This document shows, piece by piece, positions 21,805 through 40,068 of a stretch of DNA of 64,000 bases. How positions within the stretch are numbered: position 1 is the first letter of the stretch; each line of letters begins with the position of its first letter. The notes under the pieces were generated by a model, which made no database searches, was not told the origin of the DNA, and saw nothing but the letters and a program-made list of their open reading frames with translations. The translations under genes and the position numbers were made by a program. The stretch comes from Pseudomonas phage HPP-Temi, in sequence record PP968062.1; one strand, written 5' to 3'.

Positions 21805-22254
21805 TTATTTCTTTTCTGCCGGGTTGGGTACAGTAAACGGTTTAGGATCAAAACTCTTACTCATCCTGCAAGCAGAGAAAAGCCTTTCTGCGGCACGATC
21901 GGTAGCGGTCATCCCATTAAAGCCGTTATGGCCAAACTGTTTCCTATACCGCGTGATATCGACATGGAAGTTAACGATCTTGTCTTTGATATACCACAGC
22001 GCAGTAAGATTCGCAGTGATTTCGTACTCCATGGTTTTTGGCATATCTTTTGCTTTGTTCCATAGAGTCCAGTATGCCTTCTGAACGGCAATAGAAGCCT
22101 GATCGGAATTGGCGTTTTTCTCTTCGATCTGATTACCTACAACAATACTGGTTTGATATACCAGCGCGCAAACGTCATCGTTCAACGCGAGGTAATTATT
22201 CGCATTAACAGCGAAAGAGAAAAACATAAGAACGAAAGCAGCTACGTATTTCAT
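21805..22254 (-). CDS. secreted/periplasmic protein 149 aa
   Basis: N-terminal signal peptide MKYVAAFVLMFFSFAVNA. Confidence 0.6.
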   Translation of the reverse strand: MKYVAAFVLMFFSFAVNANNYLALNDDVCALVYQTSIVVGNQIEEKNANSDQASIAVQKAYWTLWNKAKDMPKTMEYEITANLTALWYIKDKIVNFHVDITRYRKQFGHNGFNGMTATDRAAERLFSACRMSKSFDPKPFTVPNPAEKK

Positions 22255-22268
22255 GGGATCTCCTTAAT

Positions 22269-22724
22269 TTAGAGGGCGCGCCCATTGATGGGACGAAGAT
22301 ATTCAAATTTGGTACCGATGGCTTTCTTACAATCGAGGTAAGTGGCACCACCGATAAAATCAGGATACTGACTGAGATTACCTTTTAGGTTAAGCCAATT
22401 AAGGCGGTAGGTTTTACTATAAAGGTTATTATGCAGGGTTGGTGAATAAACTGCAATGTAGTGGAATATTGCCCAACTAGTCGGATCTTTTGTTTCGTTG
22501 TTCAAAAGAACGGTAACGACCTGCTGTGAGAGATCACGAGCACTTACATTGCTTTCCATGTTGTCAATAGCGAGAGCAGTTGCGAAGATCTCAACTTTTT
22601 CACAAAGCTCTACATCGACCACACGGGTATCCCGCATGAAACCTTTGGGTGGTGGTGCAGCATTGGCTACACTCAACACCGCCAGCATTACAAAACCTAC
22701 AATAAGACGAGCGAACATATTCAT
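22269..22724 (-). CDS. secreted/periplasmic protein 151 aa
   Basis: signal peptide ending ...VANA-APPP. Confidence 0.6.
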   Translation of the reverse strand: MNMFARLIVGFVMLAVLSVANAAPPPKGFMRDTRVVDVELCEKVEIFATALAIDNMESNVSARDLSQQVVTVLLNNETKDPTSWAIFHYIAVYSPTLHNNLYSKTYRLNWLNLKGNLSQYPDFIGGATYLDCKKAIGTKFEYLRPINGRAL

Positions 22725-23077
22725 TTACTCCCTGCGAATTTGTAACCCACGTTAGCTTCACAACTTTCGATTATTGCCTGGACAATATCTTTATCAGGAT
22801 AACTCTTAGATATATTGCGACGAATGTCCATGACCAGAACTTGAGCATAGACCGCACCTGTACGAATGTCTTCGTTATCGGTGTTACCCATGCGCTTATT
22901 CAGGTAGGACATCGCTTGAAACTGATCTCCCCCGTTCCGAAAAATCTTGATAACATCACGGGACATGGACACAGCGATCTTACAGGATTTCTCGGTGATC
23001 AGTTGGTCTTTCTCTGCGAACGAAGGTTGGCAGCCAGTGAACAGCATGATCAGAAAAGCGAGTACGTAACGTTTCAT
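22721..23077 (-). CDS. lipoprotein 118 aa (two Cys in mature part)
   Basis: signal peptide with lipobox LFTGC. Confidence 0.6.
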   Translation of the reverse strand: MKRYVLAFLIMLFTGCQPSFAEKDQLITEKSCKIAVSMSRDVIKIFRNGGDQFQAMSYLNKRMGNTDNEDIRTGAVYAQVLVMDIRRNISKSYPDKDIVQAIIESCEANVGYKFAGSK

Positions 23078-23147: not shown

Positions 23148-23162
23148 AAAAGGACATAAAGC

Positions 23163-23178
23163 CCTCCCCGAAGGGAGG
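23163..23178 (-). terminator. terminator CCCUCC-UUCG-GGGAGG
   Basis: GC stem with CGAA loop between two genes. Confidence 0.55.
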
Positions 23179-23185
23179 ACCTCAT

Positions 23186-23458
23186 TCAGAGAGCGTAAGA
23201 CTCAACGATAGGGCCAACTAGGTAGCCCACCCATATAGCCATTACACACGGCATTGCAAAATCATGCATGTCCATCCAACGCTTGAACCACTTGGGAGAA
23301 CGCTTGAACACCCACTTCCAAATATCTCGCGCTTTGAATTGGATATACACGTAGAACCAGATGGAGACACCGATGAACAGAAATATTGCAGCCTTCTCAT
23401 GGTAAGCCGAGATGTAAGCTGTAATGATGCCAACGATGATCGCTAGGTAGTATTGCAT
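23186..23458 (-). CDS. small membrane protein 90 aa (2-3 TM)
   Basis: ORF track; hydrophobic. Confidence 0.55.
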   Translation of the reverse strand: MQYYLAIIVGIITAYISAYHEKAAIFLFIGVSIWFYVYIQFKARDIWKWVFKRSPKWFKRWMDMHDFAMPCVMAIWVGYLVGPIVESYAL

Positions 23459-24063
23459 TATACCTCCAGTTTGGCGAGCGCTTCATCCAGGAACATTTTG
23501 AACACATCTCGTACAACCGGATGCGCTTTCGTCATCCGATTATAGAGATCGAGTTTCTCGTTGAGGAACACCGGAGCAAACTTCGGAGAGTCTTCAACAA
23601 TAACGTAGACGTTAGTCAGAGACTCGATCAGTTTACAGGTTTGCGTGATATCGCAGCACGACTCCAGTTGGGTGTGGTAAGTATCAATACGAACTTTGCG
23701 CGGAGCATCGAAGTTCGGTTGAGTCAAACCTTTCACAAGCCTGGTGATATAAGGAGTGAAGTGAACCAATACATCTTCAATGGTCCAACTACTATCCTCA
23801 ACAATGTCATGAAGCCACAAAGCAGCTTGCTCACCGGGTCCCAGGCCGAATACCTTGGCGATGGTAGCGGAGTTGTGTAAGTGGGTCCATACAGGCAAAC
23901 CAGAGCCTTTACGACGCTCTCCTGATCCGATCGTGTAACCTACCCCAATAGCGGCTGCCAACTCTACAGTATGGTGCCCTTTCCATAGCGGAAGCACGTT
24001 CGCTGGAAGGCGAGTATCCAAGATAGCTTTAACTTGCTGATATGCTTCTGCTACTACGTCCAT
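23458..24063 (-). CDS. HD-domain phosphohydrolase, Rel/SpoT-hydrolase-like (small alarmone hydrolase candidate)
   Basis: H..E..........HD..ED pattern: HHTVELAAAIG ... LWLHDIVEDS; 201 aa single domain. Confidence 0.55.
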   Translation of the reverse strand: MDVVAEAYQQVKAILDTRLPANVLPLWKGHHTVELAAAIGVGYTIGSGERRKGSGLPVWTHLHNSATIAKVFGLGPGEQAALWLHDIVEDSSWTIEDVLVHFTPYITRLVKGLTQPNFDAPRKVRIDTYHTQLESCCDITQTCKLIESLTNVYVIVEDSPKFAPVFLNEKLDLYNRMTKAHPVVRDVFKMFLDEALAKLEV

Positions 24064-24099
24064 AACTTACTCCAGGGTGAATAAAATTTCGGTTTTCCC

Positions 24100-24579
24100 T
24101 TAATTGGGGAAAAGGATATGCTCATTGGGATCAATAAAGAAACCACAATTGACGAGGATAACATCCATCCAGGTTTTAGTCTGGAGGATACCTACCTCAT
24201 GTGCATCTACTAGATCAATGAGATCCAGTGGATCGAATGAACCGTAATACGTAGGTCCATCTTCCAGCTGGAATTGGTAGAAGCGGAGTCTCGATGTGTC
24301 CTCTTCATCCAACGGATCAAGAGTATCATCTGCATCTTCATCGTCGTCATCCAAACCTAGCATCAGATCTAGTACGTGTTCACGATAAAGGAAACGCTGC
24401 CCACTTTCTACAGTGAACATATGCTTCTTACCTGCAACTGGGATACGGCGTTTGAATTGAGGTTCTGCAATGAAAGCACGATAGCTTTCTTCCAGACCAT
24501 CAGCTCGACCACAGGCCAGCGTTGAGGAACGGATAGCGGTTAACATCACTGCTTCCAAGATTGGATGCATCTCAATCAT
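24100..24579 (-). CDS. hypothetical protein 159 aa with poly-acidic stretch (DDDDEDADDTLDPLDEED)
   Basis: ORF track. Confidence 0.55.
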   Translation of the reverse strand: MIEMHPILEAVMLTAIRSSTLACGRADGLEESYRAFIAEPQFKRRIPVAGKKHMFTVESGQRFLYREHVLDLMLGLDDDDEDADDTLDPLDEEDTSRLRFYQFQLEDGPTYYGSFDPLDLIDLVDAHEVGILQTKTWMDVILVNCGFFIDPNEHILFPN

Positions 24580-24663: not shown

Positions 24664-24683
24664 CCCTCTCCCGAAGGAGAGGG
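24664..24683 (-). terminator. terminator CCCUCUCC-UUCG-GGAGAGGG
   Basis: 8-bp stem with CGAA loop, TTTTATCGTTTTTC on minus strand. Confidence 0.7.
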
Positions 24684-29763: not shown

Positions 29764-31128
29764 TCACTCAGCCGAAGCTTGCGCTTCTTTAGCAGCGGCT
29801 TTCTCTTCCTCTTTTTCCTTCTTGAGCAAGTAGCTGTTCGATATGGATTTCCAGGAGAGTACACGTTGGTTGGACTTGAAGACCAGACCTTCGCGGTAGC
29901 CACGTTTGTTCTTGAACGCGGACGGACCTTCAGCCATTGCCAGGACATCTTTAACAGAGGTCTCAGCGGTAGGCTTCCAGGCCGGATCGAATACCGGTAC
30001 GTATTTCAGGCCGAGTTCTTTCACGATGGAACGTGCTTCAGCCGGCAGTAGTTCACGATTGCCATCTTCGTAGACGTTGAACACGAAGTAATCGTAATCG
30101 GCTACTTCTTCAAAGTTATCCTGAATGGACGGGCCAATCAGTTCACCCTGTACGGAGATGTAGCGACCAGTGGTGGCCTGGAAGTTGCGCAGACGTTCGA
30201 TGATCTGCTGTTGATTGGTAACACGTACGAAGTTGTTGTCTTCGATAGCAGTACCTTTTGTCCACAGGGGCCAGATGATACCGTTACGAAGTTTACCTTC
30301 CGGAGTAATCCAGGTCTTCTTGCGGAATACGTTACGGTTACGGATCAGGAAGTTGCCGACCCAGTAACGCAGTTGTTGCAGGAAGCCCCACTTCTCACCA
30401 CCCATACCCAGCTCGTAGTTACGCGAGCAAACGCCAGTACGAACACCTTTATCTTCTACGCAGAACACGGTCATGGAGCTACCATCGAGTTTGTAGGTAA
30501 CTTCCATGTCATCGCCGGCTTCTTTTAGGGTATTGAAAGCAACGGTTTTGTTCTGGATACGATCTTGGTCAGACTTGGTCAGCATTACAGGCCAGGGCTT
30601 CAGCGCGCCACCCAGATCACCAATCAGCTTGACAGCTAGCTTGACGATCCACGGAGCGTTACGTGCAGCGTGAGCTTTCGGTACCATCGGAGGAGCAGAC
30701 TCGTATTTCAGGATACCCAGCTTCAGAGTCAGGTTAGTATCAACCGGCTCGTCTTTGAACTCTTCCGGAATAGGAACCAACAGACCCTGGGACAGCTCTT
30801 TGCGAAGCTTGATGGTTTTCAGACGATGATAGTTCTTACCATCTACACGACGGTTATCGGAACGACGAGCTTCCAGGAAACCGAACAGTGGGATGTTGTC
30901 CAGCGGAAGCAGAGAGTCGATCTCGCAATAGATAGCACGATCGCCTTTCTTGTACTCACCGAGTTTTACGCACAGTTGCCAACCACCAACAATTGCCAGT
31001 TCCAACGCGTCTGCGTTCGGGTGCTTGACTACGTCGTCGATTTCAACGATACGTGCCAGCTTACGAGTTTCTTCTACAACGCCGAAGCCTTCGCGGATCG
31101 GTTTGAGTTCTTCCATTTCGAGAGTCAT
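29764..31128 (-). CDS. ATP-dependent RNA ligase, Rnl family with N-terminal OB-like domain (DraRnl/NgrRnl-like) and Lys/Glu-rich C-terminal tail
   Basis: nucleotidyltransferase motif I TYKLDGSS (KxDG); 454 aa. Confidence 0.7.
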   Translation of the reverse strand: MTLEMEELKPIREGFGVVEETRKLARIVEIDDVVKHPNADALELAIVGGWQLCVKLGEYKKGDRAIYCEIDSLLPLDNIPLFGFLEARRSDNRRVDGKNYHRLKTIKLRKELSQGLLVPIPEEFKDEPVDTNLTLKLGILKYESAPPMVPKAHAARNAPWIVKLAVKLIGDLGGALKPWPVMLTKSDQDRIQNKTVAFNTLKEAGDDMEVTYKLDGSSMTVFCVEDKGVRTGVCSRNYELGMGGEKWGFLQQLRYWVGNFLIRNRNVFRKKTWITPEGKLRNGIIWPLWTKGTAIEDNNFVRVTNQQQIIERLRNFQATTGRYISVQGELIGPSIQDNFEEVADYDYFVFNVYEDGNRELLPAEARSIVKELGLKYVPVFDPAWKPTAETSVKDVLAMAEGPSAFKNKRGYREGLVFKSNQRVLSWKSISNSYLLKKEKEEEKAAAKEAQASAE

Positions 31129-31207
31129 TTCAGTTTCCTTATTAACAAGGTTTATGTTTTTCTTTCTTCTGTCTACATAACTGAACGAGTCCAGTCGAAT
31201 TTTCCTA

Positions 31208-31606
31208 TTAGGTATTTACACCCCAGTTGTAGTCGTAGTAGGTTTCACAGAAGGTCTTACCTGCGGTATACTTCATGGTGCAGTTGTTGGAATCAACCAG
31301 AGTCGCTAAGTCTTCGAACGGTACAGGGTGACCACTCATCGGAGAGATGATCGTGTAACCGTTGTAGCGCAGATGATCAACCAGAGCAACCATACCAGTT
31401 TCCAAACCGACATTGTAGATGCGGTTTTCTTTCGGAGTCTCAACGATGTACTGTTCACCAGCAGGAATGTCAGTGATCAGACTACGATCGTCATCGGTAC
31501 GAGCTACATCGGCCATGGTCCGACTGATTTCCCAGCAGAACTCATTGAGTACGGGGTTGGATTCTTGCCATTCTTTCTTTTCTTGCAGACGCTGTTCGCA
31601 GGACAT
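31208..31606 (-). CDS. hypothetical protein ~133 aa, C-terminal ...WGVNT tail family
   Basis: ORF track 31208..31762 trimmed to ATG with GAGGT RBS downstream of the promoter element. Confidence 0.55.
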   Translation of the reverse strand: MSCEQRLQEKKEWQESNPVLNEFCWEISRTMADVARTDDDRSLITDIPAGEQYIVETPKENRIYNVGLETGMVALVDHLRYNGYTIISPMSGHPVPFEDLATLVDSNNCTMKYTAGKTFCETYYDYNWGVNT

Positions 31607-31635
31607 TGTAATTACCTCGTTGTGGATGCAAATAA

Positions 31636-31670
31636 GTAATATAGATCTGAAAAAAATTTTATTGACATAA
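31636..31670 (-). promoter_or_regulatory. promoter-like element family B
   Basis: minus strand reads GTCAATAAAATTTTTTTCAGATCTATATTACTT immediately after a terminator. Confidence 0.45.
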
Positions 31671-31671
31671 A

Positions 31672-31689
31672 GGGGAGCCGAAGCTCCCC
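31672..31689 (-). terminator. terminator GGGGAGC-UUCG-GCUCCCC
   Basis: perfect 7-bp stem with CGAA loop, TTTATG flank. Confidence 0.65.
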
Positions 31690-31697
31690 CATGTCTA

Positions 31698-33464
31698 TTA
31701 CAGAGATGCAGCAATCCGTTCCCGGATCTTAGCCATCGTGTCGTGTTTGTAGAACTCACCATTCTTGAAGAACAGTTTCAGTTCACCCGATTCGGTTTCC
31801 AAAGCATCCCAACTAAGGTCAGCTTCTTGTTCCAGAACGAACTTACCATCTTCGGTCTTCACTACATGCAGGAAACCTTTAGCCGACTTCTTGGAAGAAG
31901 CAGCTTTAGGATCTTTGTACAGCTCAACGAACTCGTCTTCGATCTGAACAGCAGTAGCTTTGACAGCCATGCCGAAAGTATCGCGAGTGTTGTACTGATA
32001 GGTGAAGCTACCGATACCAAGAACTACGTTGCTAGAAGCGAAGCCTTTACGTTCCAGGCGAGACATGATCTGCTCGGTACGGTCTACAGTGATCGAGTCA
32101 CCATAGATCAGGCCAACGTATTCGTTCAGGCACTTGAAGCCTTTACTGTTCTCAGTACCACCGAAGGAGTCCCACAGGACTTCAATTGCACCGCGTACTT
32201 CCACCTCAGGGATTTCAGTCTCAGAGAGGAAGTTAGACAGACTGACAGCGAGGTCGTTGATCTCGTAGTACTTACCACCTACGCTAACAACTTCGTAACC
32301 AGCGTACTCAATGGAACCGTATTCGGCAATGTGTTTCTCGAAATCAACACGATCAGCGAATTTAATCGGATAAGCCATGTAGCCAGTGATGACTTTAACC
32401 GGATCACCAGAGTCAGGACGAACAACAACTTTCGCCAGACCCAGCTCGTTCTTCAGACGACTTTCGATTTCTGCACGGATGCTCGGGAGAACATCAGAGA
32501 TAACACCCCAGAAGTCGAAGGAATCACAGACCAGCGAAATAATGCCTTCCGGGACTTTCTGAAGAATGATCTCCAGGATGTAGTCACGTTCAGCTTCCAA
32601 CCGCAGTTGGTCATGTAGTTCCGGAGTGATCACAGTACCTTCCTCTTGGAGGAAGTTGATCTTCATTTGCAGACGGTACAGGATGTTGGTTGTGGCGACA
32701 GCGTGTTCAGTTGCAGTAACTGATGCACCCAACAATTCAGTATCACTGTTAGCACCGTAATACATCTCAGCGTAATCGAGAGCCGGGATGGTATCGGTAC
32801 CAGCGAAGCTAGTCAGGTGAGCTGTACCAGAACGCATTGCATCTTCAGGACCACTCATACCACGGAAGCTGAAGTCGTGTGCCTGGAACTTGACGTGCTC
32901 ACGGTTATCGCAGGTGCGGTCAGCGTAGTGGTTCAGTACACGCTGATACTCAGCTGCAATAGTTGCGTTACAGATCATCTTCCAGTTGTAGGCACTGACG
33001 ATGGTTTCCAGGTAGTTCACCAGCCAGTAGTGATCATCGTCATCCAGGCTGTTGTAAACCACAAAGGTAGGTACGCCAACATCTACACGTTCGCCTTCGT
33101 CAATAGCCAGCACCGTCAGAGGCAGGTAGCCCAGAGCATGCAGCTTGTACAGACACTCGTGTTTGATAACGCCTTTACCGCACATGTTGTCGAAACGACG
33201 AGCAGCGCGTTTAACAGCGATTTCACGAGGCAGATTGAAGAAGGTACGATCCCACAGTTCTACCAGTTCGTGCCAGGTACCTTGCAGACCGAAGTTAACG
33301 ACTTTGTTGTCGTAGAACGCAGAACAAGACTTCGACCGCAGGAACTGCTTAGCAGAACGCGGGGTGAAGTTTGCATACTTACGTTCAGTACCTTTCGGAT
33401 ACAGAGCGCCATGGCCAGGTTTATAGCAGTCAGTAGCAGTTGCTGCATAGAGAGCATTAGACAT
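31698..33464 (-). CDS. nadV: nicotinamide phosphoribosyltransferase family enzyme (NadV/NAMPT-like; possibly a nicotinamide ADP-ribose transferase 'Namat')
   Basis: TDCYK, NFGLQ, YWLVNYLET, HDFSFRGMS, AHLTSFAGTDT, VVRPDSGDP all align with NAMPT blocks; ~60-aa insertion after RPDSGDP. Confidence 0.8.
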   Translation of the reverse strand: MSNALYAATATDCYKPGHGALYPKGTERKYANFTPRSAKQFLRSKSCSAFYDNKVVNFGLQGTWHELVELWDRTFFNLPREIAVKRAARRFDNMCGKGVIKHECLYKLHALGYLPLTVLAIDEGERVDVGVPTFVVYNSLDDDDHYWLVNYLETIVSAYNWKMICNATIAAEYQRVLNHYADRTCDNREHVKFQAHDFSFRGMSGPEDAMRSGTAHLTSFAGTDTIPALDYAEMYYGANSDTELLGASVTATEHAVATTNILYRLQMKINFLQEEGTVITPELHDQLRLEAERDYILEIILQKVPEGIISLVCDSFDFWGVISDVLPSIRAEIESRLKNELGLAKVVVRPDSGDPVKVITGYMAYPIKFADRVDFEKHIAEYGSIEYAGYEVVSVGGKYYEINDLAVSLSNFLSETEIPEVEVRGAIEVLWDSFGGTENSKGFKCLNEYVGLIYGDSITVDRTEQIMSRLERKGFASSNVVLGIGSFTYQYNTRDTFGMAVKATAVQIEDEFVELYKDPKAASSKKSAKGFLHVVKTEDGKFVLEQEADLSWDALETESGELKLFFKNGEFYKHDTMAKIRERIAASL

Positions 33465-33480
33465 ATTTTTGATCCTCGGA

Positions 33481-34368
33481 TTAGAAAACAGAATGGGAGA
33501 AGAATTTCGGGTCACGTACACCATCATGCCGATAATCATTTACAGCGTTAGGATGATAGGTGTTAGTGGTCTGGATATAATCGTAGTATTCGTTCAGTTC
33601 GTCGAAACCCTTGGAGAAAATACCATGGGTTACAAACAGACCCAGTTGATCTACGATGCACTGCTCGTGGATAACCTTAGCAAGTTCAATGAACGTGCGG
33701 CCACCATCACAGATGTCATCGATAACCATCAACTTAGCTAGTCGAGGAACTTCATGGGCATTCAACAGCGACGTGTGGGTGATCTTACCAGTCGACAGTT
33801 CACGGTTCTTACAAGCGTACAGTACGCCAGCAGCACCGATCTCTTTCGCAATGGCTTCGGTCTTTTTACGTGCACCTTCATCAGGGGCAACCAACCACCA
33901 GTCACTCGGATTTTCCAGAAGTTGCCCTTCGACACACACCCAGCTTTTGATGATATCTGCTTGGGTAATCTCGCGGCAATTGTTGATGAGTGGCAGCGAC
34001 ACATTACTGTGAGGATCGTACAGGCATACAGACGTAGCGTCCAATGCATTGATCAAACCAGTCATCACACTAATCGACAGAGGTTCACCTTCATCGCAAA
34101 CACGATCTTGTCGTGCGTACGGCAGATAACCAATAACCAAGTGTATTTCAGGACGAATACGCTGGCGACGAATAGCGTCGAATACCAGGAACAGTTCCAT
34201 GATATCGTCACTATTACGAAGCCAAGCATTGATTATGAATCGTTCGCCTTTCTTTCTGAGATCTTTCAGAGGGATCTTGATACCGATCTCACCGCCAGGG
34301 AATTTAAAGGGTTGACAATCGTAGTGATCTGCCAAGCCGTTACCGTGAAGCTGAGTAATTCGAATCAT
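33481..34368 (-). CDS. prs: ribose-phosphate pyrophosphokinase homolog (Prs-like; candidate ADPR-pyrophosphokinase 'Adps')
   Basis: YLPYARQDR and VIDDICDGGRT match Prs signatures; ribose-5-P loop (DLHA.Q.QGFF) replaced by DPHSNVSLPL and DTGGT by DGGRT. Confidence 0.75.
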   Translation of the reverse strand: MIRITQLHGNGLADHYDCQPFKFPGGEIGIKIPLKDLRKKGERFIINAWLRNSDDIMELFLVFDAIRRQRIRPEIHLVIGYLPYARQDRVCDEGEPLSISVMTGLINALDATSVCLYDPHSNVSLPLINNCREITQADIIKSWVCVEGQLLENPSDWWLVAPDEGARKKTEAIAKEIGAAGVLYACKNRELSTGKITHTSLLNAHEVPRLAKLMVIDDICDGGRTFIELAKVIHEQCIVDQLGLFVTHGIFSKGFDELNEYYDYIQTTNTYHPNAVNDYRHDGVRDPKFFSHSVF

Positions 34369-34393
34369 TTATTTTTCCTTTAGGAAAGAAGTT

Positions 34394-34409
34394 GGGGACC
34401 GAAGTCCCC
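34394..34409 (-). terminator. terminator GGGGAC-UUCG-GUCCCC
   Basis: 6-bp stem with CGAA loop, TTCTTTCCTAAAGG flank. Confidence 0.55.
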
Positions 34410-34416
34410 GTTCGGG

Positions 34417-35670
34417 TTAGCCCTTGACGCAAACAATCTGACGCAGGGTGTGGACGATCTCAATGAGGTCATCCTGAGCAGCCATTACGTCTTCAATGTT
34501 CTTATAAGCCTTTGGAGTCTCGTCGATCACGTCAATGTCTTTCCGGCATTCTACACCGGCAGTATCACGAGCATGATCTTCAAGAGTGAAAGTCTTAGCG
34601 GCTTGGGTTCGGGACATGACACGTCCTGCTCCGTGCGAACACGAACAGAAGGACTCGCGGTTCCCTTTACCTTTCACGATGAAGCTCTTAGCGCCCATCG
34701 ATCCAGGGATAATACCGTACATGCCTTCATCTGCACGCACAGCGCCTTTACGAGTTACGGATACTTTCGCACCGAAGTGGTTCTCGAACGACACGTAGTT
34801 GTGGTGACAGTTTACAGCAGTAAGGCTAGTGTTGATAGGCCGACCCATGTAGTCAGCCACAGCCTCGATTGTTGCACGCATCATGATCGTACGGTTGAGA
34901 GCAGCGTAACGCTGTGCCCAATGTACAGCCTCGATGTAGTCGCTGTAGTACTTGGTACCTTCCGGCAGATAAGCGAGGTCCTGATCAGGCAGATTGATGT
35001 GGTAAAGCCGCATCTCCTCTTTTGCTTTCTCGATAAAGTACCGACCAATTGCGTTACCGATTCCACGAGAACCCGAATGGAGCATGATCCAAACTCGATC
35101 TTGTTCATCCAGACAGATTTCTACGAAGTGGTTACCAGTACCGAGAGTACCTGCGTGGTTGAAAGCACGGTTAGCAGCCTTACCCAGTTTCGGGTGTTTA
35201 GCCACGATGAGCTTCAGTTCCTCTTCAAGCTTCTTAACCTGAGCTTGGAGCTCCGGTTCGAGTTTCTTGTAAACGAGGTTGAAGTCACTCCATGCGCCAC
35301 GATCATTCGGTCCGCCATTGTCAGTACGACCATGAGGGATCCGAGACTCAATACGGTAACGCAGATGTTGCAAGCCACGAGTCATGTCGTTAGCTGTCAG
35401 ATCAGTCAACTGTGCTGCCATTCCACAGCCAATGTCAACCCCTACCGCAGACGGAATGATTGCACCCCGCGTAGCGATTACGGAACCGATGGTTGCACCG
35501 GTACCAAGGTGGACATCAGGCATTACAGCCAGATGCTTATAAATGAACGGGAGTCCCGCAATGTTCTTCAGCTGACGTTTTGCATCAGCTTCAACAGGGA
35601 CGCCTTTAACCCAAGCTTTAATTGGGAATTCATTTTGTTCGTTCAGCATAACGTATTTTTGAGTAGTCAT
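34417..35670 (-). CDS. rtcB: RtcB-family RNA 3'-phosphate/2',3'-cyclic phosphate ligase
   Basis: NHAGTLGTGNHF, HSGSRGIGN, AVNCHHN, SHGAGR blocks typical of RtcB; 417 aa. Confidence 0.85.
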   Translation of the reverse strand: MTTQKYVMLNEQNEFPIKAWVKGVPVEADAKRQLKNIAGLPFIYKHLAVMPDVHLGTGATIGSVIATRGAIIPSAVGVDIGCGMAAQLTDLTANDMTRGLQHLRYRIESRIPHGRTDNGGPNDRGAWSDFNLVYKKLEPELQAQVKKLEEELKLIVAKHPKLGKAANRAFNHAGTLGTGNHFVEICLDEQDRVWIMLHSGSRGIGNAIGRYFIEKAKEEMRLYHINLPDQDLAYLPEGTKYYSDYIEAVHWAQRYAALNRTIMMRATIEAVADYMGRPINTSLTAVNCHHNYVSFENHFGAKVSVTRKGAVRADEGMYGIIPGSMGAKSFIVKGKGNRESFCSCSHGAGRVMSRTQAAKTFTLEDHARDTAGVECRKDIDVIDETPKAYKNIEDVMAAQDDLIEIVHTLRQIVCVKG

Positions 35671-35749
35671 TGTAGACGCTCCGAGAGTTTTAAGGTTTAG
35701 GAATTCAACGAGTTAACGTTGTGCCAAGGTCGGGATCGCAGAATTCCAT

Positions 35750-35778
35750 GGACAGGTAGAGTAATGTCATGCCTGTCC
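35750..35778 (-). other. long-loop hairpin (7-bp stem GGACAGG/CCTGTCC, 15-nt loop) in a 136-nt intergenic region, flanked by GAATTC sites
   Basis: seen directly; no U-tract. Confidence 0.3.
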
Positions 35779-35806
35779 GTATTAGATAAGACTTTTGAGT
35801 AAATTG

Positions 35807-36391
35807 TCATCGGTCCGATTCAACGGACATAGATAACTCTTTATGTTTTCTTCGCCTTTCGACATCGGCGAACCAAGGTCTTACACTGAGCCACATTGCA
35901 GGCCAACTAAGAATAGCAGCTATAGCCATCCATACTGCGCTGAGTAATACCCATGCATCGTTACCATCATCAACATCGCGTGGAGCTATGTCTAGTTGAT
36001 AACCGGTTCCAACGGGGACATGGTGATATGTGTAATCACCGAGCTTGGTTTCGTATACGAAGGGAACACCTTTCATTTTCCCTTCCCAACGACCCTTTAG
36101 CTCGGTATAAACACCGTTCTTGTACTTGTGAGATTCTTCCCATTTCCAGGTCAGTACAACCTGGGTCTTACGTTTGGTAACGTAGTCAGAGAAGAATGAG
36201 TTGTAGACTGCACCACCCATAAATGCTAAGCAGATTAGGTAGAGTACCACACAACGCAGTTTAACCCACTTGGAGATTGGTACATACGGCTCTTGTTTCA
36301 TGGTTATCGTACAGCCGGTTGCGTTTGCATAACCCAAGGGATTCCTTGTGGCCATTGCATATATTGCAGCTGCCTCCGGAGTTATATTCAT
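35807..36391 (-). CDS. membrane protein 194 aa (at least two TM)
   Basis: ORF track; ATGA overlap with upstream gene. Confidence 0.55.
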   Translation of the reverse strand: MNITPEAAAIYAMATRNPLGYANATGCTITMKQEPYVPISKWVKLRCVVLYLICLAFMGGAVYNSFFSDYVTKRKTQVVLTWKWEESHKYKNGVYTELKGRWEGKMKGVPFVYETKLGDYTYHHVPVGTGYQLDIAPRDVDDGNDAWVLLSAVWMAIAAILSWPAMWLSVRPWFADVERRRKHKELSMSVESDR

Positions 36392-37215
36392 TTAGGATTC
36401 CCATGGATAAGCTGGAACGTGTCGAACTTGTATTGATCAACGAAGTACCATGCGAGTTCACTCAGCTTAAAGATATCCGGACGTTCGTATTCACCGAAGT
36501 CGGGTTTCTCTTTAGCCAAATGGAAATCGATGAAACGGTCCAATACAGGACAACGATCGATCAAGTCTTGTTCAGTGGAACCTACCTTACAGTTGACCAG
36601 TTCCTGAATACGTTTGTACAGGGTAGGATCAGACAGAATCGGTAGGAGTTCATGGAATACCATCGGTGGATGTTCACGACTAGTCTCAACCCACAATGCT
36701 GCTAACAGTGGACGGAGAGCATAGAAGTATTTCTTCATGCGGACTTTCTCATCCGACAGCCAACGCATCTTGGTTTGCTTGGCCATGGAGATATAGTGCA
36801 TGAAGCTCGATTCGGGAATGAAGTGCTTGATAGCGTAATCACGAATCAGTTTGTAATCCCACTCGATCTTACGGTAAACGATCGGGGAGTTCAACCATTC
36901 CAACAGAGTCGGGTTAGACTTGTAAGCCAGTTGAAGTGTCTTGGTGATACTCCAACCAGCCAGATCGAGTTCCTTGGAAACCATCTCTTCGATGGTGTCA
37001 CGACCTTCGTTATCAACCCGGACATAATGGCTCGGATGGTTAACGTAGATGAAGCGAACATCGTAGTCGCTATTAGTAGAAGCGAAACCCCAACCACGAC
37101 TACCGGACTCACAGGCGTAAATGATCTTTACACCATACTTCTGTTCGATACGAGTTAACTCGGCGTCTATAACTGCACGCATCTCATCACTAACAGGGTG
37201 ACGTGGATCCATCAT
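36388..37215 (-). CDS. pol-beta superfamily nucleotidyltransferase, RlaP-like (RNA-repair-associated family)
   Basis: YACESGSRGWGFASTNSDYDVRF = GS(x9-10)D.D NTase motif; 275 aa. Confidence 0.6.
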   Translation of the reverse strand: MMDPRHPVSDEMRAVIDAELTRIEQKYGVKIIYACESGSRGWGFASTNSDYDVRFIYVNHPSHYVRVDNEGRDTIEEMVSKELDLAGWSITKTLQLAYKSNPTLLEWLNSPIVYRKIEWDYKLIRDYAIKHFIPESSFMHYISMAKQTKMRWLSDEKVRMKKYFYALRPLLAALWVETSREHPPMVFHELLPILSDPTLYKRIQELVNCKVGSTEQDLIDRCPVLDRFIDFHLAKEKPDFGEYERPDIFKLSELAWYFVDQYKFDTFQLIHGNPK

Positions 37216-38634: not shown

Positions 38635-40068
38635 TTAAACAGCAACTTTACCAGCAATGTGCGGATGGAACTGGTAATCCAGGATCTCGTAATCTTCACG
38701 AGTAATATCCAGGAACGGCTTACCTTTGGCCTCAGGCTTGAAGCGGATGGTAGGAGTAGGATAAGTATTGCGGGAACGTTGCAGTGTAACTTGTTCTTCA
38801 TGGTTACTGTAGATATGGCAATCGCCACCAGTCCAGATGAACTCTTCTGCTACCATGTTAAACTGATTCGCCAACTGATGAGTCATCAACGAATAGAACG
38901 TGATGTTGAACGGATTCCCAAGGAAGTTATCGGAAGATCTTTGATAGAGCTGACAGCTGATCCCACGGGAAGGAGCTTTATGCTCATCCAACCAAGCTAC
39001 TACAGCCTCATCAGTAGCGGCCGCATCACCACGCCAAATCCTCAGATGGGCTTTGACTTGTTCTGCGTTACCGAACGGAGGTTGACCACGAGTAGTTCCA
39101 CCACTGTGTTGGTCGTGATAAGCATCCTCTTCGAATTGGCTTTGATCCAGAGCCTGCACTCTTTCGTCTACGGTCAGCTTACGAGTCCAGAACTGAATGA
39201 AGGCATGACACGGAGGCAATGCTTGATCTTCAACCAGACGAGGATCCCAGGCGCAGATGATAAGACGACGACTATCTGGGTTATGTTTAAGTTGCCACAG
39301 AAGTTCTTGAACCTGATCCACACGGCGACGGATAACACATTCATCTTTCGTGTAGTCTTCGCCAGGTACGTCAACTACGAACTTAAAGCCGCGCTTCTCG
39401 TAATTAGCCCAGTCTACTTTAGGAATGATACGAACATCATCGATATCACGCCAGGTTTTACCATAGACCGGACCAAGATCACCGCCAACTAAACGGAAGG
39501 CAGACAACAGACCATCGCTGTCTTTAATCACGATCTTTGCATCACCGATGACAATACGATATACACGTAGAGCCATTCCATAGTAGTCGAATGCATCGGG
39601 ACCAGGACCGAAACGACTTACATCGGCCCACGTCTTCAGATTAATTAGAAGTAGTGCCGGTTTGTCCTGTTCAGGATCAATCCACTTCCAATCGATATCA
39701 CCGATCTCATTGCTGAAATGCATCTCAAACGGAATGTTCTTGAACTTCTTCTGAACAGCTGTAGTCAGCCATTCGTCGGAAACGCGTTCGAATACTTCGG
39801 TACCCGGTTTAACCCATTCGTTCCAGATGGTGACGTTCTTGCTCAGGAGATATTCTAGGCGAGTGTCACCAGACTTCATCCAGTTGAGTTCTTCTTCAAC
39901 GGAAGGCAAGTGGATCTTCTTGGTGGTTACTACCGGAAGGTTTCCGTTACGGAGATCATAACGGAACTGCCTACCGAACAGAGAGGTCGTACCAGTGCCG
40001 GTACGATCCCCTTTGAATACACCGTACTTCTGTGTATCTTCCAGTAACTGTAGGTATTGATGCATCAA
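38635..40068 (-). CDS. thyA: thymidylate synthase (ThyA)-family enzyme with three large insertions (477 aa vs ~265-290 typical); dUMP-specific (Asn retained)
   Basis: GDRTGTGT, DLGPVYGKTWR, NPDSRRLIICAWDP, PPCHAFIQF, SCQLYQRSSDNFLGNPFN, WTGGDCHIYSNH all collinear with E. coli ThyA. Confidence 0.8.
   Translation of the reverse strand: MMHQYLQLLEDTQKYGVFKGDRTGTGTTSLFGRQFRYDLRNGNLPVVTTKKIHLPSVEEELNWMKSGDTRLEYLLSKNVTIWNEWVKPGTEVFERVSDEWLTTAVQKKFKNIPFEMHFSNEIGDIDWKWIDPEQDKPALLLINLKTWADVSRFGPGPDAFDYYGMALRVYRIVIGDAKIVIKDSDGLLSAFRLVGGDLGPVYGKTWRDIDDVRIIPKVDWANYEKRGFKFVVDVPGEDYTKDECVIRRRVDQVQELLWQLKHNPDSRRLIICAWDPRLVEDQALPPCHAFIQFWTRKLTVDERVQALDQSQFEEDAYHDQHSGGTTRGQPPFGNAEQVKAHLRIWRGDAAATDEAVVAWLDEHKAPSRGISCQLYQRSSDNFLGNPFNITFYSLMTHQLANQFNMVAEEFIWTGGDCHIYSNHEEQVTLQRSRNTYPTPTIRFKPEAKGKPFLDITREDYEILDYQFHPHIAGKVAV

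What the first reader, a model, noticed from the sequence alone, without database searches (positions are those of the whole stretch)
23458..24063. Stand-alone Rel/SpoT-type HD hydrolase: candidate small alarmone hydrolase
The H..E...(spacer)...HD..ED arrangement (HHTVELAAAIG ... LWLHDIVEDS) is the Rel/SpoT/Mesh1 hydrolase signature in a 201-aa single-domain protein. Phage-encoded alarmone hydrolases can degrade (p)ppGpp/(p)ppApp and counter toxSAS or stringent-response-based abortive infection.
Basis: partly seen in the sequence, partly recalled or inferred. Interest (0 to 1): 0.6.

Follow-up and report, generated by a model that had tools for sequence, protein, structure and literature searches.

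The report
Jumbo-phage small alarmone hydrolase, altered centre
This is a real, strongly conserved gene of a phiKZ-like jumbo Pseudomonas phage that encodes a stand-alone Rel/SpoT/MESH1-type hydrolase, a known kind of phage enzyme, although its small clade has changed four residues at the catalytic centre that are otherwise invariant.

Summary
The ORF is real: 201 aa, on the MINUS strand at 23458-24063, with a Shine-Dalgarno sequence and dN/dS of about 0.02 or less. It belongs to the RelA/SpoT-homologue (RSH) hydrolase fold. Pfam HD_4 is borderline for the single sequence, but a family profile hits human MESH1 at 3e-30 and Rel/SpoT at about 1e-28. An AlphaFold model (pLDDT 97) superposes on MESH1 (TM 0.74/0.83, rmsd 2.0 A), and only MESH1, SAH and Rel/SpoT structures rank at the top.

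Its "H..E" (H30-E34) is not part of the signature; the metal histidine is H61.

Five of six RSH motifs are intact. In the sixth (HD5), the metal-binding Asp is Glu (E147).

The query, PS119XW, phiPA3 gp301 and two metagenomic relatives also replace H44, Q49 and Y58. Y58 is the scissile-phosphate contact in MESH1. These positions are canonical in phiKZ gp246 and in 80/80 IMG/VR viral homologues.

Phage SAHs are known and tested (SSU5 PaSpo neutralises toxSAS). Orthologues are already annotated as phosphohydrolases.

Verdict: a candidate SAH of a known kind with a variant catalytic centre. Activity, substrate and role are untested. Interest is modest.

The parts
23458..24063 (-). CDS of the 201-aa RSH-type HD hydrolase (SAH-like), 22.5 kDa, pI 6.05
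   Evidence: ORF list and translation; PHROG 990 at 1e-22, HD_4, TIGR00691; AF2 pLDDT 97; Foldseek top hits are MESH1, SAH and SpoT structures; dN/dS about 0.02; mass and pI
24070..24073 (-). Shine-Dalgarno GGAG, 6 nt upstream of the ATG
   Evidence: Read directly from the sequence
23974..24063 (-). N-terminal extension (residues 1-30; extra helices 3-16 and 24-27).
   Evidence: About 50 residues precede the HD1 Arg, against a family median of 22. The extension is shared with phiKZ gp246 and phiPA3 gp301. Helices from the model. The H30/H31 columns are mostly gaps.
23881..23934 (-). Residues T44-H61: variant T44 and E49; HD1 R51 (base stacking) and K52; variant V58 (the MESH1 Y32 position); W59; HD2 H61 (metal ligand)
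   Evidence: Alignments; residue roles from PMC9293644 and 10.1101/325266; codon coordinates
23794..23811 (-). HD3 H85-D86 (metal ligands) and HD4 E89-D90 (catalytic pair)
   Evidence: Conserved in 139-140 of 140 sequences and in 80/80; roles
23689..23700 (-). R122...R125, conserved basic residues. R122 aligns with MESH1 K97, which contacts the 5'-diphosphate.
23611..23634 (-). K144, then variant HD5 E147-S148 (Glu replaces the metal-binding Asp), then HD6 N151
   Evidence: E at this position in 6 of 140 sequences, all in this clade; D in 134/140 and in 80/80 viral homologues
23186..23458 (-). Downstream 90-aa basic protein with several predicted membrane-spanning segments (Kyte-Doolittle). 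Its start overlaps the SAH stop (TAATG) and a GGAGG lies inside the SAH 3' end, which suggests translational coupling.
   Evidence: Conserved in HHBS36_1 and PS119XW, weakly in L006, and absent from phiPA3 and phiKZ.
24100..24579 (-). Upstream 159-aa acidic protein (pI 4.3) with no family match, probably in the same transcription unit
24664..24683 (-). Terminator-like GC-rich hairpin with a TTCG loop, upstream boundary of the putative three-gene unit
23156..23185 (-). Terminator-like 13-pair hairpin with a TTCG loop, directly after the 90-aa gene; downstream boundary of the unit

Best explanation
The gene encodes a cytoplasmic, single-domain RelA/SpoT-homologue hydrolase: a small alarmone hydrolase-like enzyme of a phiKZ-related (jumbo group 1) Pseudomonas phage.

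Inferred mechanism, by homology with MESH1, RelH and Rel:
- One divalent metal (Mn2+ in relatives) is held by H61, H85, D86 and the carboxylate of E147.
- E89 and D90 activate the attacking water.
- R51 stacks on the purine base.
- N151, K52 and R122 hold the phosphates.
- The enzyme removes the pyrophosphate (or phosphate) esterified to the 3' (or 2') hydroxyl of a purine nucleotide: (p)ppGpp, (p)ppApp, or the pyrophosphorylated 3'-CCA end of tRNA.

The inferred benefit to the phage is that alarmone- or toxSAS-mediated shutdown of translation and nucleotide supply is reversed during infection.

Shown here: the gene is real and under purifying selection, it has the RSH hydrolase fold, five of six RSH motifs are intact, and its clade has a specific variant catalytic centre.

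Inferred only: metal binding through Glu, catalytic activity, substrate identity, and physiological role.
For: - Fold and family: PHROG 990 at 1e-22. Family profile against PDB: MESH1 3e-30, Lmo0812 3.5e-30, Rel/SpoT 1e-28, RelH, PaSAH. AF2 pLDDT 97, pTM 0.93. Foldseek top 50 are all RSH hydrolase domains, best hMESH1 with TM 0.74/0.83 and rmsd 2.0 A.
- Motifs: R51, H61, H85, D86, E89, D90 and N151 are invariant or nearly invariant in the family and are all present here. Motif roles are taken from PMC9293644 and 10.1101/325266.
- Selection: dN/dS is 0.02 against HHBS36_1 and 0.005 between HHBS36_1 and PS119XW. E147 is kept in all five clade members despite only 39% identity.
- Precedent: the phage SAHs SSU5 PaSpo and PVP-SE1 PbcSpo neutralise all tested toxSAS (PMC7229694). 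The query is 34% identical to PaSpo, E = 7e-15. MESH1 and ATfaRel remove the 3'-pyrophosphate from tRNA (10.1101/2021.04.30.441581).
- Context: an RNA-repair and NAD+-salvage block (RNA ligase, NAMPT-like plus Prs-like pair, RtcB, RlaP) lies 6-14 kb upstream on the same strand.
Against: - No activity was measured.
- The HD5 metal ligand is Glu, not Asp. The Tyr that contacts the scissile phosphate in MESH1 is Val. H44 and Q49 are also replaced. These positions are invariant in 80/80 viral homologues, so activity, metal preference or substrate may differ from canonical SAHs.
- Pfam HD_4 scores 26.3 bits, just below its 27.2-bit cut-off, for the single sequence.
- Immediate neighbours have no recognisable function, and no toxSAS or other RSH partner lies nearby.
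- The counter-defence block is 6 kb or more away, separated by about a dozen ORFans, so guilt by association is weak.
Confidence: 0.6

Rival explanations
1. Same fold and chemistry, but a shifted substrate. The clade-specific remodelling (Y58V, D147E, H44T/S, Q49E/L) retunes the enzyme away from (p)ppGpp. Possible alternative substrates are pyrophosphorylated tRNA 3' ends only, (p)ppApp only, or a 2'/3'-phosphorylated cofactor such as NADPH, CoA or PAPS, as described for MESH1.
For: - Four correlated replacements at positions that are invariant in 80/80 viral homologues and in at least 134 of 140 representatives. Two of them sit at the metal and scissile-phosphate site.
- The 5'-phosphate contact K52 is variable across the jumbo-phage clade: S in phiPA3, D in phiKZ, Y in P0005.
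- MESH1 shows that the fold accepts NADPH, and the PDB holds a PAPS complex.
- SAHs act on tRNA 3'-pyrophosphate, and RtcB, RNA ligase and RlaP tRNA-repair genes lie nearby.
Against: - The base-stacking R51, N151 and the ED pair are unchanged.
- Canonical MESH1 and ATfaRel already handle all these substrates without such changes.
- There is no structural or biochemical data for any clade member.
- The changes could be a neutral compensatory swap (the longer Glu filling space left by the lost Tyr).
Confidence: 0.22
2. A catalytically impaired pseudo-enzyme that binds and sequesters an alarmone or another nucleotide, or binds a host RSH partner, rather than hydrolysing anything.
For: Loss of the canonical Asp ligand and of the phosphate-contacting Tyr.
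Against: - H61, H85, D86, E89, D90 and N151 are all retained under dN/dS of 0.02 or less.
- Glu is itself a common metal-binding side chain (general knowledge) and is invariant in the clade.
- A stoichiometric sponge would not need the ED catalytic pair.
Confidence: 0.08
3. A generic HD-superfamily phosphohydrolase unrelated to alarmones, for example a dNTPase, a 5'-nucleotidase or an HD-GYP-type phosphodiesterase. Relatives carry the database label 'metal-dependent phosphohydrolase'.
For: - Relatives are annotated only as 'metal-dependent phosphohydrolase' or 'phosphohydrolase'.
- The single-sequence HD_4 score is below the gathering threshold.
Against: - All significant PDB sequence and structure hits are RSH hydrolase domains. 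No dNTPase, YfbR or HD-GYP structure appears among the top 50.
- The RSH-specific HD1 Arg, HD4 Glu-Asp and HD6 Asn are present.
Confidence: 0.07

Closest known systems
Salmonella phage SSU5 SAH (PaSpo subfamily of RSH small alarmone hydrolases; Jimmy et al. 2020, PMC7229694)
   Same: A stand-alone, phage-encoded, single-domain RSH hydrolase of about 200 aa. 34% identity over 129 aa, E = 7e-15. It shares R-K, H, HD, ED, K...N and the C-terminal 'P.F..(V/I)(Y/F)L.EK' segment.
   Different: PaSpo has the canonical H, Q, Y and D at query positions 44, 49, 58 and 147, and lacks the roughly 30-residue N-terminal extension. PaSpo has been shown to neutralise five toxSAS; the query is untested. Subfamily membership could not be tested because the subfamily HMMs were not available.
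Pseudomonas phage phiKZ gp246 and phiPA3 gp301 (uncharacterised orthologues in group 1 jumbo phages)
   Same: Same family and the same N-terminal extension of about 50 residues before the HD1 Arg. Same local features: G53 (query and phiKZ gp246), W59 and S148. Similar genome neighbourhood, with the gp248-like lipoprotein downstream. phiPA3 gp301 shares the variant T/S44, V/A58 and E147 signature.
   Different: phiKZ gp246 keeps the canonical H44, Q49, Y58 and D147, so the variant centre arose within the jumbo-phage clade. The overlapping 90-aa membrane-protein gene is absent from phiKZ and phiPA3. No published study of either protein was found.
Human and Drosophila MESH1 (HDDC3), PDB 3NR1, 5VXA, 3NQW
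   Same: Best structural match: TM 0.74/0.83, rmsd 2.0 A over 172 columns. One-to-one correspondence of R24/K25, H35, H61/D62, E65/D66, K97 and N126 with query R51/K52, H61, H85/D86, E89/D90, R122 and N151.
   Different: About 19-20% identity. MESH1 D122 (metal ligand) corresponds to E147, and Y32 (scissile-phosphate contact) to V58. The MESH1 nicotinamide-binding residues W138, H141 and R142 are not conserved. MESH1 is a metazoan cytosolic enzyme.
Bacterial SAHs with structures: RelH (C. glutamicum 7QOC/7QOD, L. levettii 7QOE) and P. aeruginosa SAH (6YVC, 6Z3N)
   Same: Same fold, with TM about 0.7, and the same HD1-HD6 motif architecture.
   Different: Only 17-21% identity. The host P. aeruginosa SAH is a very weak sequence match (E about 1 by phmmer), so the phage gene is not a recent capture from the host. 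HD5 is D-K/R in RelH but E-S here.
Hydrolase domain of long RSHs (Rel, SpoT; e.g. RelSeq 1VJ7, A. baumannii SpoT 7QPR)
   Same: A homologous HD domain. The best single-sequence PDB hits are S. aureus Rel and A. baumannii SpoT, E about 2e-4.
   Different: The query has no synthetase, TGS or ACT domains. It is a single domain, so it lacks the intramolecular regulation of long RSHs.

Membership tests
RSH hydrolase domain / small alarmone hydrolase (Pfam HD_4) | Significant match to the family profile (HD_4 / spoT_relA) | tested here: inconclusive
   The single sequence scores 26.3 bits against HD_4, below the 27.2-bit gathering cut-off, with E = 6.8e-6. TIGR00691 gives E = 1.6e-5 over the hydrolase part only. 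However, a 75-sequence profile of its own family hits MESH1 at 3e-30 and Rel/SpoT at 1e-28, and the close homologues P0001 and P0002 carry a precomputed PF13328 hit.
RSH hydrolase domain / small alarmone hydrolase (Pfam HD_4) | All-alpha HD fold superposable on MESH1, RelH or Rel hydrolase domains | tested here: met
   AF2 pLDDT 97. The Foldseek PDB top 50 are all RSH hydrolases. hMESH1: TM 0.74/0.83, rmsd 2.0 A.
RSH hydrolase domain / small alarmone hydrolase (Pfam HD_4) | HD1: Arg that stacks on the purine base (RelSeq R44, MESH1 R24), followed by Lys | tested here: met
   R51 and K52. R is present in 136/140 and 80/80. Role from PMC9293644.
RSH hydrolase domain / small alarmone hydrolase (Pfam HD_4) | HD2: metal-binding His (MESH1 H35) | tested here: met
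H61, present in 138/140.
RSH hydrolase domain / small alarmone hydrolase (Pfam HD_4) | HD3: His-Asp metal ligands | tested here: met
   H85 and D86, present in 140/140.
RSH hydrolase domain / small alarmone hydrolase (Pfam HD_4) | HD4: Glu-Asp catalytic pair | tested here: met
   E89 (140/140) and D90 (139/140).
RSH hydrolase domain / small alarmone hydrolase (Pfam HD_4) | HD5: metal-binding Asp followed by Arg/Lys (or a hydrophobic residue in many SAHs) | tested here: not met
   The query has E147-S148. Asp is found in 134/140 representatives and 80/80 viral homologues; Glu occurs only in the query's own five-member clade. This is a conservative change that may still bind metal (inference).
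RSH hydrolase domain / small alarmone hydrolase (Pfam HD_4) | HD6: Asn that contacts the base or phosphate (MESH1 N126) | tested here: met
   N151, present in 140/140.
RSH hydrolase domain / small alarmone hydrolase (Pfam HD_4) | Single-domain architecture (no synthetase, TGS or ACT domains), which separates SAHs from long RSHs | tested here: met
   201 aa with one domain covering residues 31-200. Flanking ORFs are separate genes. There is no other RSH-like ORF in the window.
RSH hydrolase domain / small alarmone hydrolase (Pfam HD_4) | Mn2+-dependent hydrolysis of the 3'-pyrophosphate of (p)ppGpp or (p)ppApp | not testable with these tools
   Requires enzymology.
Phage anti-toxSAS SAH (functional class of SSU5 PaSpo and PVP-SE1 PbcSpo) | Neutralises toxSAS toxicity on co-expression | not testable with these tools
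   Shown only for SSU5 and PVP-SE1 (PMC7229694).
PaSpo subfamily (Atkinson/Hauryliuk RSH classification) | Best match to the PaSpo subfamily HMM, or placement in the PaSpo clade | not tested
   The subfamily HMMs and reference tree were not available. The only evidence is pairwise similarity: 34% identity, E = 7e-15.

The most novel reading that the evidence does not exclude
A small sub-clade of jumbo-phage SAHs (this phage, the PA1C/PS119XW group, phiPA3 and two metagenomic relatives) has rebuilt the metal and scissile-phosphate centre: Asp to Glu at the metal ligand, loss of the phosphate-contacting Tyr, and two further replacements at invariant positions. The enzyme would consequently have a different substrate or metal preference from canonical alarmone hydrolases. 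One example would be a dedicated tRNA 3'-pyrophosphatase or 3'-phosphatase working alongside the phage's RtcB, RNA ligase and RlaP tRNA-repair genes. Another would be an enzyme for an as yet unrecognised 3'-phosphorylated immune nucleotide.
Probability: 0.2. Interest if true: 0.55.

Novelty: new variant of a known kind. Interest (0 to 1): 0.32.

Why it matters
Phage-encoded alarmone hydrolases are a recognised but little-studied counter-measure against stringent-response and toxSAS (CapRel, FaRel, Tas1-type) growth arrest.

By established knowledge, phiKZ-like phages shield their DNA in a nucleus-like compartment but still depend on host cytoplasmic translation and nucleotide pools. That makes them natural targets of tRNA- or ATP-directed toxSAS. 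An SAH conserved across this group is therefore a plausible, testable anti-defence or host-takeover factor for phages used against P. aeruginosa.

The clade-specific Glu-for-Asp and Val-for-Tyr centre offers a natural experiment on how the RSH hydrolase site tolerates, or exploits, changes at a metal ligand. If the enzyme turns out to be a canonical (p)ppGpp hydrolase, the finding is ordinary.

Tried and rejected
2. A partner gene. The ten flanking ORFs were scanned against Pfam and PHROGs and none has a known function; only the gp248-like lipoprotein has a PHROG of unknown function. No second RSH-like ORF exists in the window and there are no tRNA genes.
3. A link to phage Paride, whose infection of dormant cells needs (p)ppGpp: rejected, because Paride is PA5oct-like and unrelated to phiKZ-like phages.
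4. Prior prediction by Iyer et al. 2021. Their 'HD-alarmone PDEase' is listed for jumbo groups 2 and 3 only, and phiKZ-like phages are group 1. Their example accession is not the PA02 orthologue.
5. A literature search for PHIKZ246 or gp246 function found nothing relevant. A search for CapRel together with phiKZ returned only two papers on unrelated anti-jumbo-phage immune systems, which were not read.
6. A search for more members of the variant clade. The word-index protein search found two. The exhaustive representative search found only three clusters at 50% identity. IMG/VR held more than 356 relatives, none above 41% identity and all 80 examined canonical.
7. The downstream 90-aa membrane protein as a conserved partner: rejected beyond the close clade.
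8. Recent capture from the host: rejected, because the match to P. aeruginosa SAH is E about 1.
Full report
**Observation.** The coordinates 23458-24063 hold one uninterrupted ORF of 201 codons plus a stop, but it lies on the minus strand. The plus-strand reading of the same interval is broken by stops. The ORF has a GGAG Shine-Dalgarno sequence 6 nt upstream of its ATG (24070-24073). Its TAA stop overlaps the ATG of the next gene (TAATG). Against its orthologues in Pseudomonas phages HHBS36_1 and PS119XW it is only 77-79% identical in DNA but 90% identical in protein. Synonymous sites are saturated, and dN/dS is about 0.02 (0.005 between the two orthologues). It is therefore a real gene under strong purifying selection.

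**Which genome.** The region is about 80% identical in DNA to HHBS36_1, phiLBG22 and PA1C, and 76% identical to PS119XW (genus Pawinskivirus), BRkr and phiHQ. All are P. aeruginosa phages of 300-306 kb. More distant orthologues of the protein are phiPA3 gp301 (39% identity, full length) and phiKZ gp246 (36% over residues 48-187). The window also encodes an NAD-dependent DNA ligase, which Iyer et al. describe as typical of group 1 (phiKZ-like) jumbo phages. That these phages build a nucleus-like compartment rests on established knowledge, not on a test here.

**Family assignment.**
- Single-sequence searches are weak but consistent. Pfam HD_4 gives E = 6.8e-6 and 26.3 bits, just below the 27.2-bit cut-off. 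TIGR00691 spoT_relA gives 1.6e-5. PHROG 990 'metal-dependent phosphohydrolase' gives 1e-22. Among PDB sequences, S. aureus Rel, A. baumannii SpoT and Drosophila and human MESH1 score E of about 1e-4 to 3e-3.
- An exhaustive HMMER search of 1.84 billion representatives found 2,618 relatives at E <= 1e-3, mostly single-domain proteins of 160-210 aa.
- A 75-sequence profile of these relatives hits human MESH1 at 3e-30, Lmo0812 at 3.5e-30, Rel and SpoT N-terminal domains at about 1e-28, RelH, P. aeruginosa SAH, and the (p)ppApp hydrolase Aph1 at 4e-12.
- AlphaFold2 with that alignment gives pLDDT 97 and pTM 0.93, an all-helical domain.
- All of the top 50 Foldseek matches in the PDB are RSH hydrolase domains. 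The best is human MESH1 (TM 0.74/0.83, rmsd 2.0 A over 172 columns), followed by RelH, L. levettii SAH, SpoT and PaSAH.
- In the viral structure library the neighbours are phage HD/PDEase and '(p)ppGpp hydrolase' proteins.
- Only this one ORF in the window matches the family profile.

**Motifs.** The six RSH hydrolase motifs are defined in PMC9293644. The MESH1-NADPH complex (10.1101/325266) gives residue roles:
- The metal is held by H35, H61, D62 and D122.
- The scissile phosphate is contacted by Y32, residue 66 and N126.
- The base stacks on R24.
- K25 and K97 hold the 5'-diphosphate.

In a 140-sequence alignment the query maps as follows:

| Query residue | MESH1 equivalent | Motif |
|---|---|---|
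| R51, K52 | R24, K25 | HD1 |
| H61 | H35 | HD2 |
| H85, D86 | H61, D62 | HD3 |
| E89, D90 | E65, D66 | HD4 |
| R122 | K97 | - |
| E147 | D122 | HD5 |
| N151 | N126 | HD6 |

Its 'H..E' (H30-E34) is wrong: those columns are gaps in about 129 of 140 sequences and the residues are not conserved even in phiPA3. The MESH1 sequence I recalled from memory for this alignment agrees with residues 8-169 of 3NR1 as printed.

**The unexpected part.** Five sequences replace four positions that are otherwise nearly invariant. They are the query, P0001 (PS119XW group), P0002 (an ENA metagenome contig), P0003 (a Logan contig) and P0004 (phiPA3 gp301). The replacements are H44 to T/S, Q49 to E/L, Y58 to V/A/G, and D147 to E.
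- phiKZ gp246 and P0005 belong to the same jumbo-phage clade. They share the roughly 50-residue N-terminal region, W59 and S148, but keep H, Q, Y and D.
- In 80 further viral homologues from IMG/VR these positions are H 80/80, Q or H 80/80, Y 80/80 and D 80/80.
- The alignment through residues 44-61 is ungapped and anchored by G48, R51, P57, W59 and H61. No alternative Asp lies near position 147.
- E147 is invariant within the variant clade at 39% overall identity, and all other catalytic residues are retained.
- I therefore infer that the enzyme is still active. The longer Glu may take over metal binding while the lost Tyr makes room for it.
- Strictly, the HD5 motif as defined is not met. 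This is why I classify the protein as a variant of the known kind rather than a plain member.

**Context.** The gene sits in a long run of minus-strand genes.
- Two terminator-like hairpins with TTCG loops (24683-24664 and 23185-23156) bracket a possible three-gene unit. Its members are an acidic 159-aa ORFan (24100-24579), the hydrolase, and a basic 90-aa protein with several predicted membrane-spanning segments (23186-23458) whose start overlaps the hydrolase stop.
- This trio is conserved in HHBS36_1 and PS119XW and partly in the metagenomic contig L006, but not in phiPA3 or phiKZ. It is therefore not a conserved functional module of the family.
- The gp248-like lipoprotein (22721-23077) is syntenic across phiKZ-like phages.
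- None of the ten flanking proteins matches a family of known function.
- A block of repair and salvage genes lies 6-14 kb upstream on the same strand: RNA ligase, a NAMPT-like plus Prs-like pair, RtcB and an RlaP nucleotidyltransferase. This gives only loose support for a counter-defence setting.

**What is known.**
- Stand-alone phage SAHs were described by Jimmy et al. 2020. SSU5 SAH (PaSpo) and PVP-SE1 SAH (PbcSpo) neutralise all five tested toxSAS (PMC7229694). PaSpo is routinely co-expressed to tame CapRel (PMC9712102).
- MESH1 and ATfaRel restore aminoacylation of tRNA pyrophosphorylated by FaRel2 (10.1101/2021.04.30.441581).
- The query is 34% identical to PaSpo over 129 aa, E = 7e-15.
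- Iyer et al. 2021 predicted 'HD-alarmone PDEases' as counter-nucleotide defences in jumbo phages of groups 2 and 3. phiKZ-like phages are group 1 and are not named there.
- GenBank records already label the orthologues 'metal-dependent phosphohydrolase', 'phosphohydrolase' or 'GTP pyrophosphokinase'.
- I found no study of phiKZ gp246 or phiPA3 gp301.

**Mechanism and rivals.**
- Most likely (0.6): a metal-dependent 3'-pyrophosphohydrolase acting on (p)ppGpp, (p)ppApp and/or pyrophosphorylated tRNA in the infected cell. It would keep translation and nucleotide supply running against the stringent response or toxSAS defences. The data cannot tell general host takeover from specific counter-defence.
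- Shifted substrate or metal preference caused by the remodelled centre (0.22).
- A non-catalytic binder (0.08). This is disfavoured because the ED pair and three metal ligands are retained under strong constraint.
- A generic non-alarmone HD phosphohydrolase (0.07). This is disfavoured because all structural and profile neighbours are RSH hydrolases and the RSH-specific HD1, HD4 and HD6 motifs are present.

**Verdict.** The interpretation as a candidate phage SAH is supported at the level of family and fold. Function remains inferred. The kind is known and relatives are already annotated. The distinctive element is a clade-restricted variant catalytic centre. Interest is modest (0.32).

Noticed in passing
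window 29764-37215, minus strand: A block of repair and salvage genes: RNA ligase (29764-31128), a NAMPT-like protein (31698-33539) directly next to a ribose-phosphate-pyrophosphokinase-like protein (33481-34368), RtcB tRNA ligase (34417-35670) and an RlaP-family nucleotidyltransferase (36388-37215). From my own knowledge, the NAMPT-like plus Prs-like pair has the architecture of the phage NAD+ reconstitution pathway NARP1.
   Followed up: partly
window 38635-40068, minus strand: A thymidylate-synthase-like ORF of 477 aa (TTG start) spans a PHROG profile of only 335 positions. This implies an insertion of about 150 aa whose nature was not examined.
   Followed up: no
window 21805-23077, minus strand: Three tandem genes for apparently exported proteins lie just downstream of the hydrolase unit. 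22721-23077 has a lipobox-like LFTGC and is homologous to phiKZ gp248 and phiPA3 gp303 (PHROG 15284). 22269-22724 and 21805-22254 have N-terminal signal-peptide-like segments. Function is unknown.
   Followed up: partly
window 23156-23185 and 24664-24683: GC-rich hairpins with TTCG loops followed by T-rich tails. Six terminator-like sites were found in 2.6 kb against 2.1 expected from shuffles. They may be the transcript boundaries or processing sites typical of phiKZ-like phages.
   Followed up: no
window 24093-24113, minus strand: A 7-bp inverted repeat, TTTTCCC...GGGAAAA, spans the stop codon of the upstream 159-aa gene, 30 nt before the hydrolase start codon.
   Followed up: no
window 34450-35700, plus strand: A 416-codon ORF runs antisense to RtcB. 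It is most likely a non-coding shadow ORF.
   Followed up: no
L004 (phiKZ gp246), L003 (phiPA3 gp301), P0005: The residue after the HD1 Arg is Lys in 124 of 140 family members and contacts the 5'-diphosphate in MESH1. Here it is K in the query, but D in phiKZ, S in phiPA3 and Y in P0005. The 5'-phosphate site therefore seems relaxed or altered across the whole jumbo-phage clade.
   Followed up: partly
L006 (ENA ERZ18242340 contig, 8761 bp): A metagenomic relative, 65% identical in the hydrolase, keeps the gene order (acidic protein, hydrolase, overlapping small membrane protein, gp248-like lipoprotein). It also carries two GNAT acetyltransferase-like genes further downstream.
   Followed up: no
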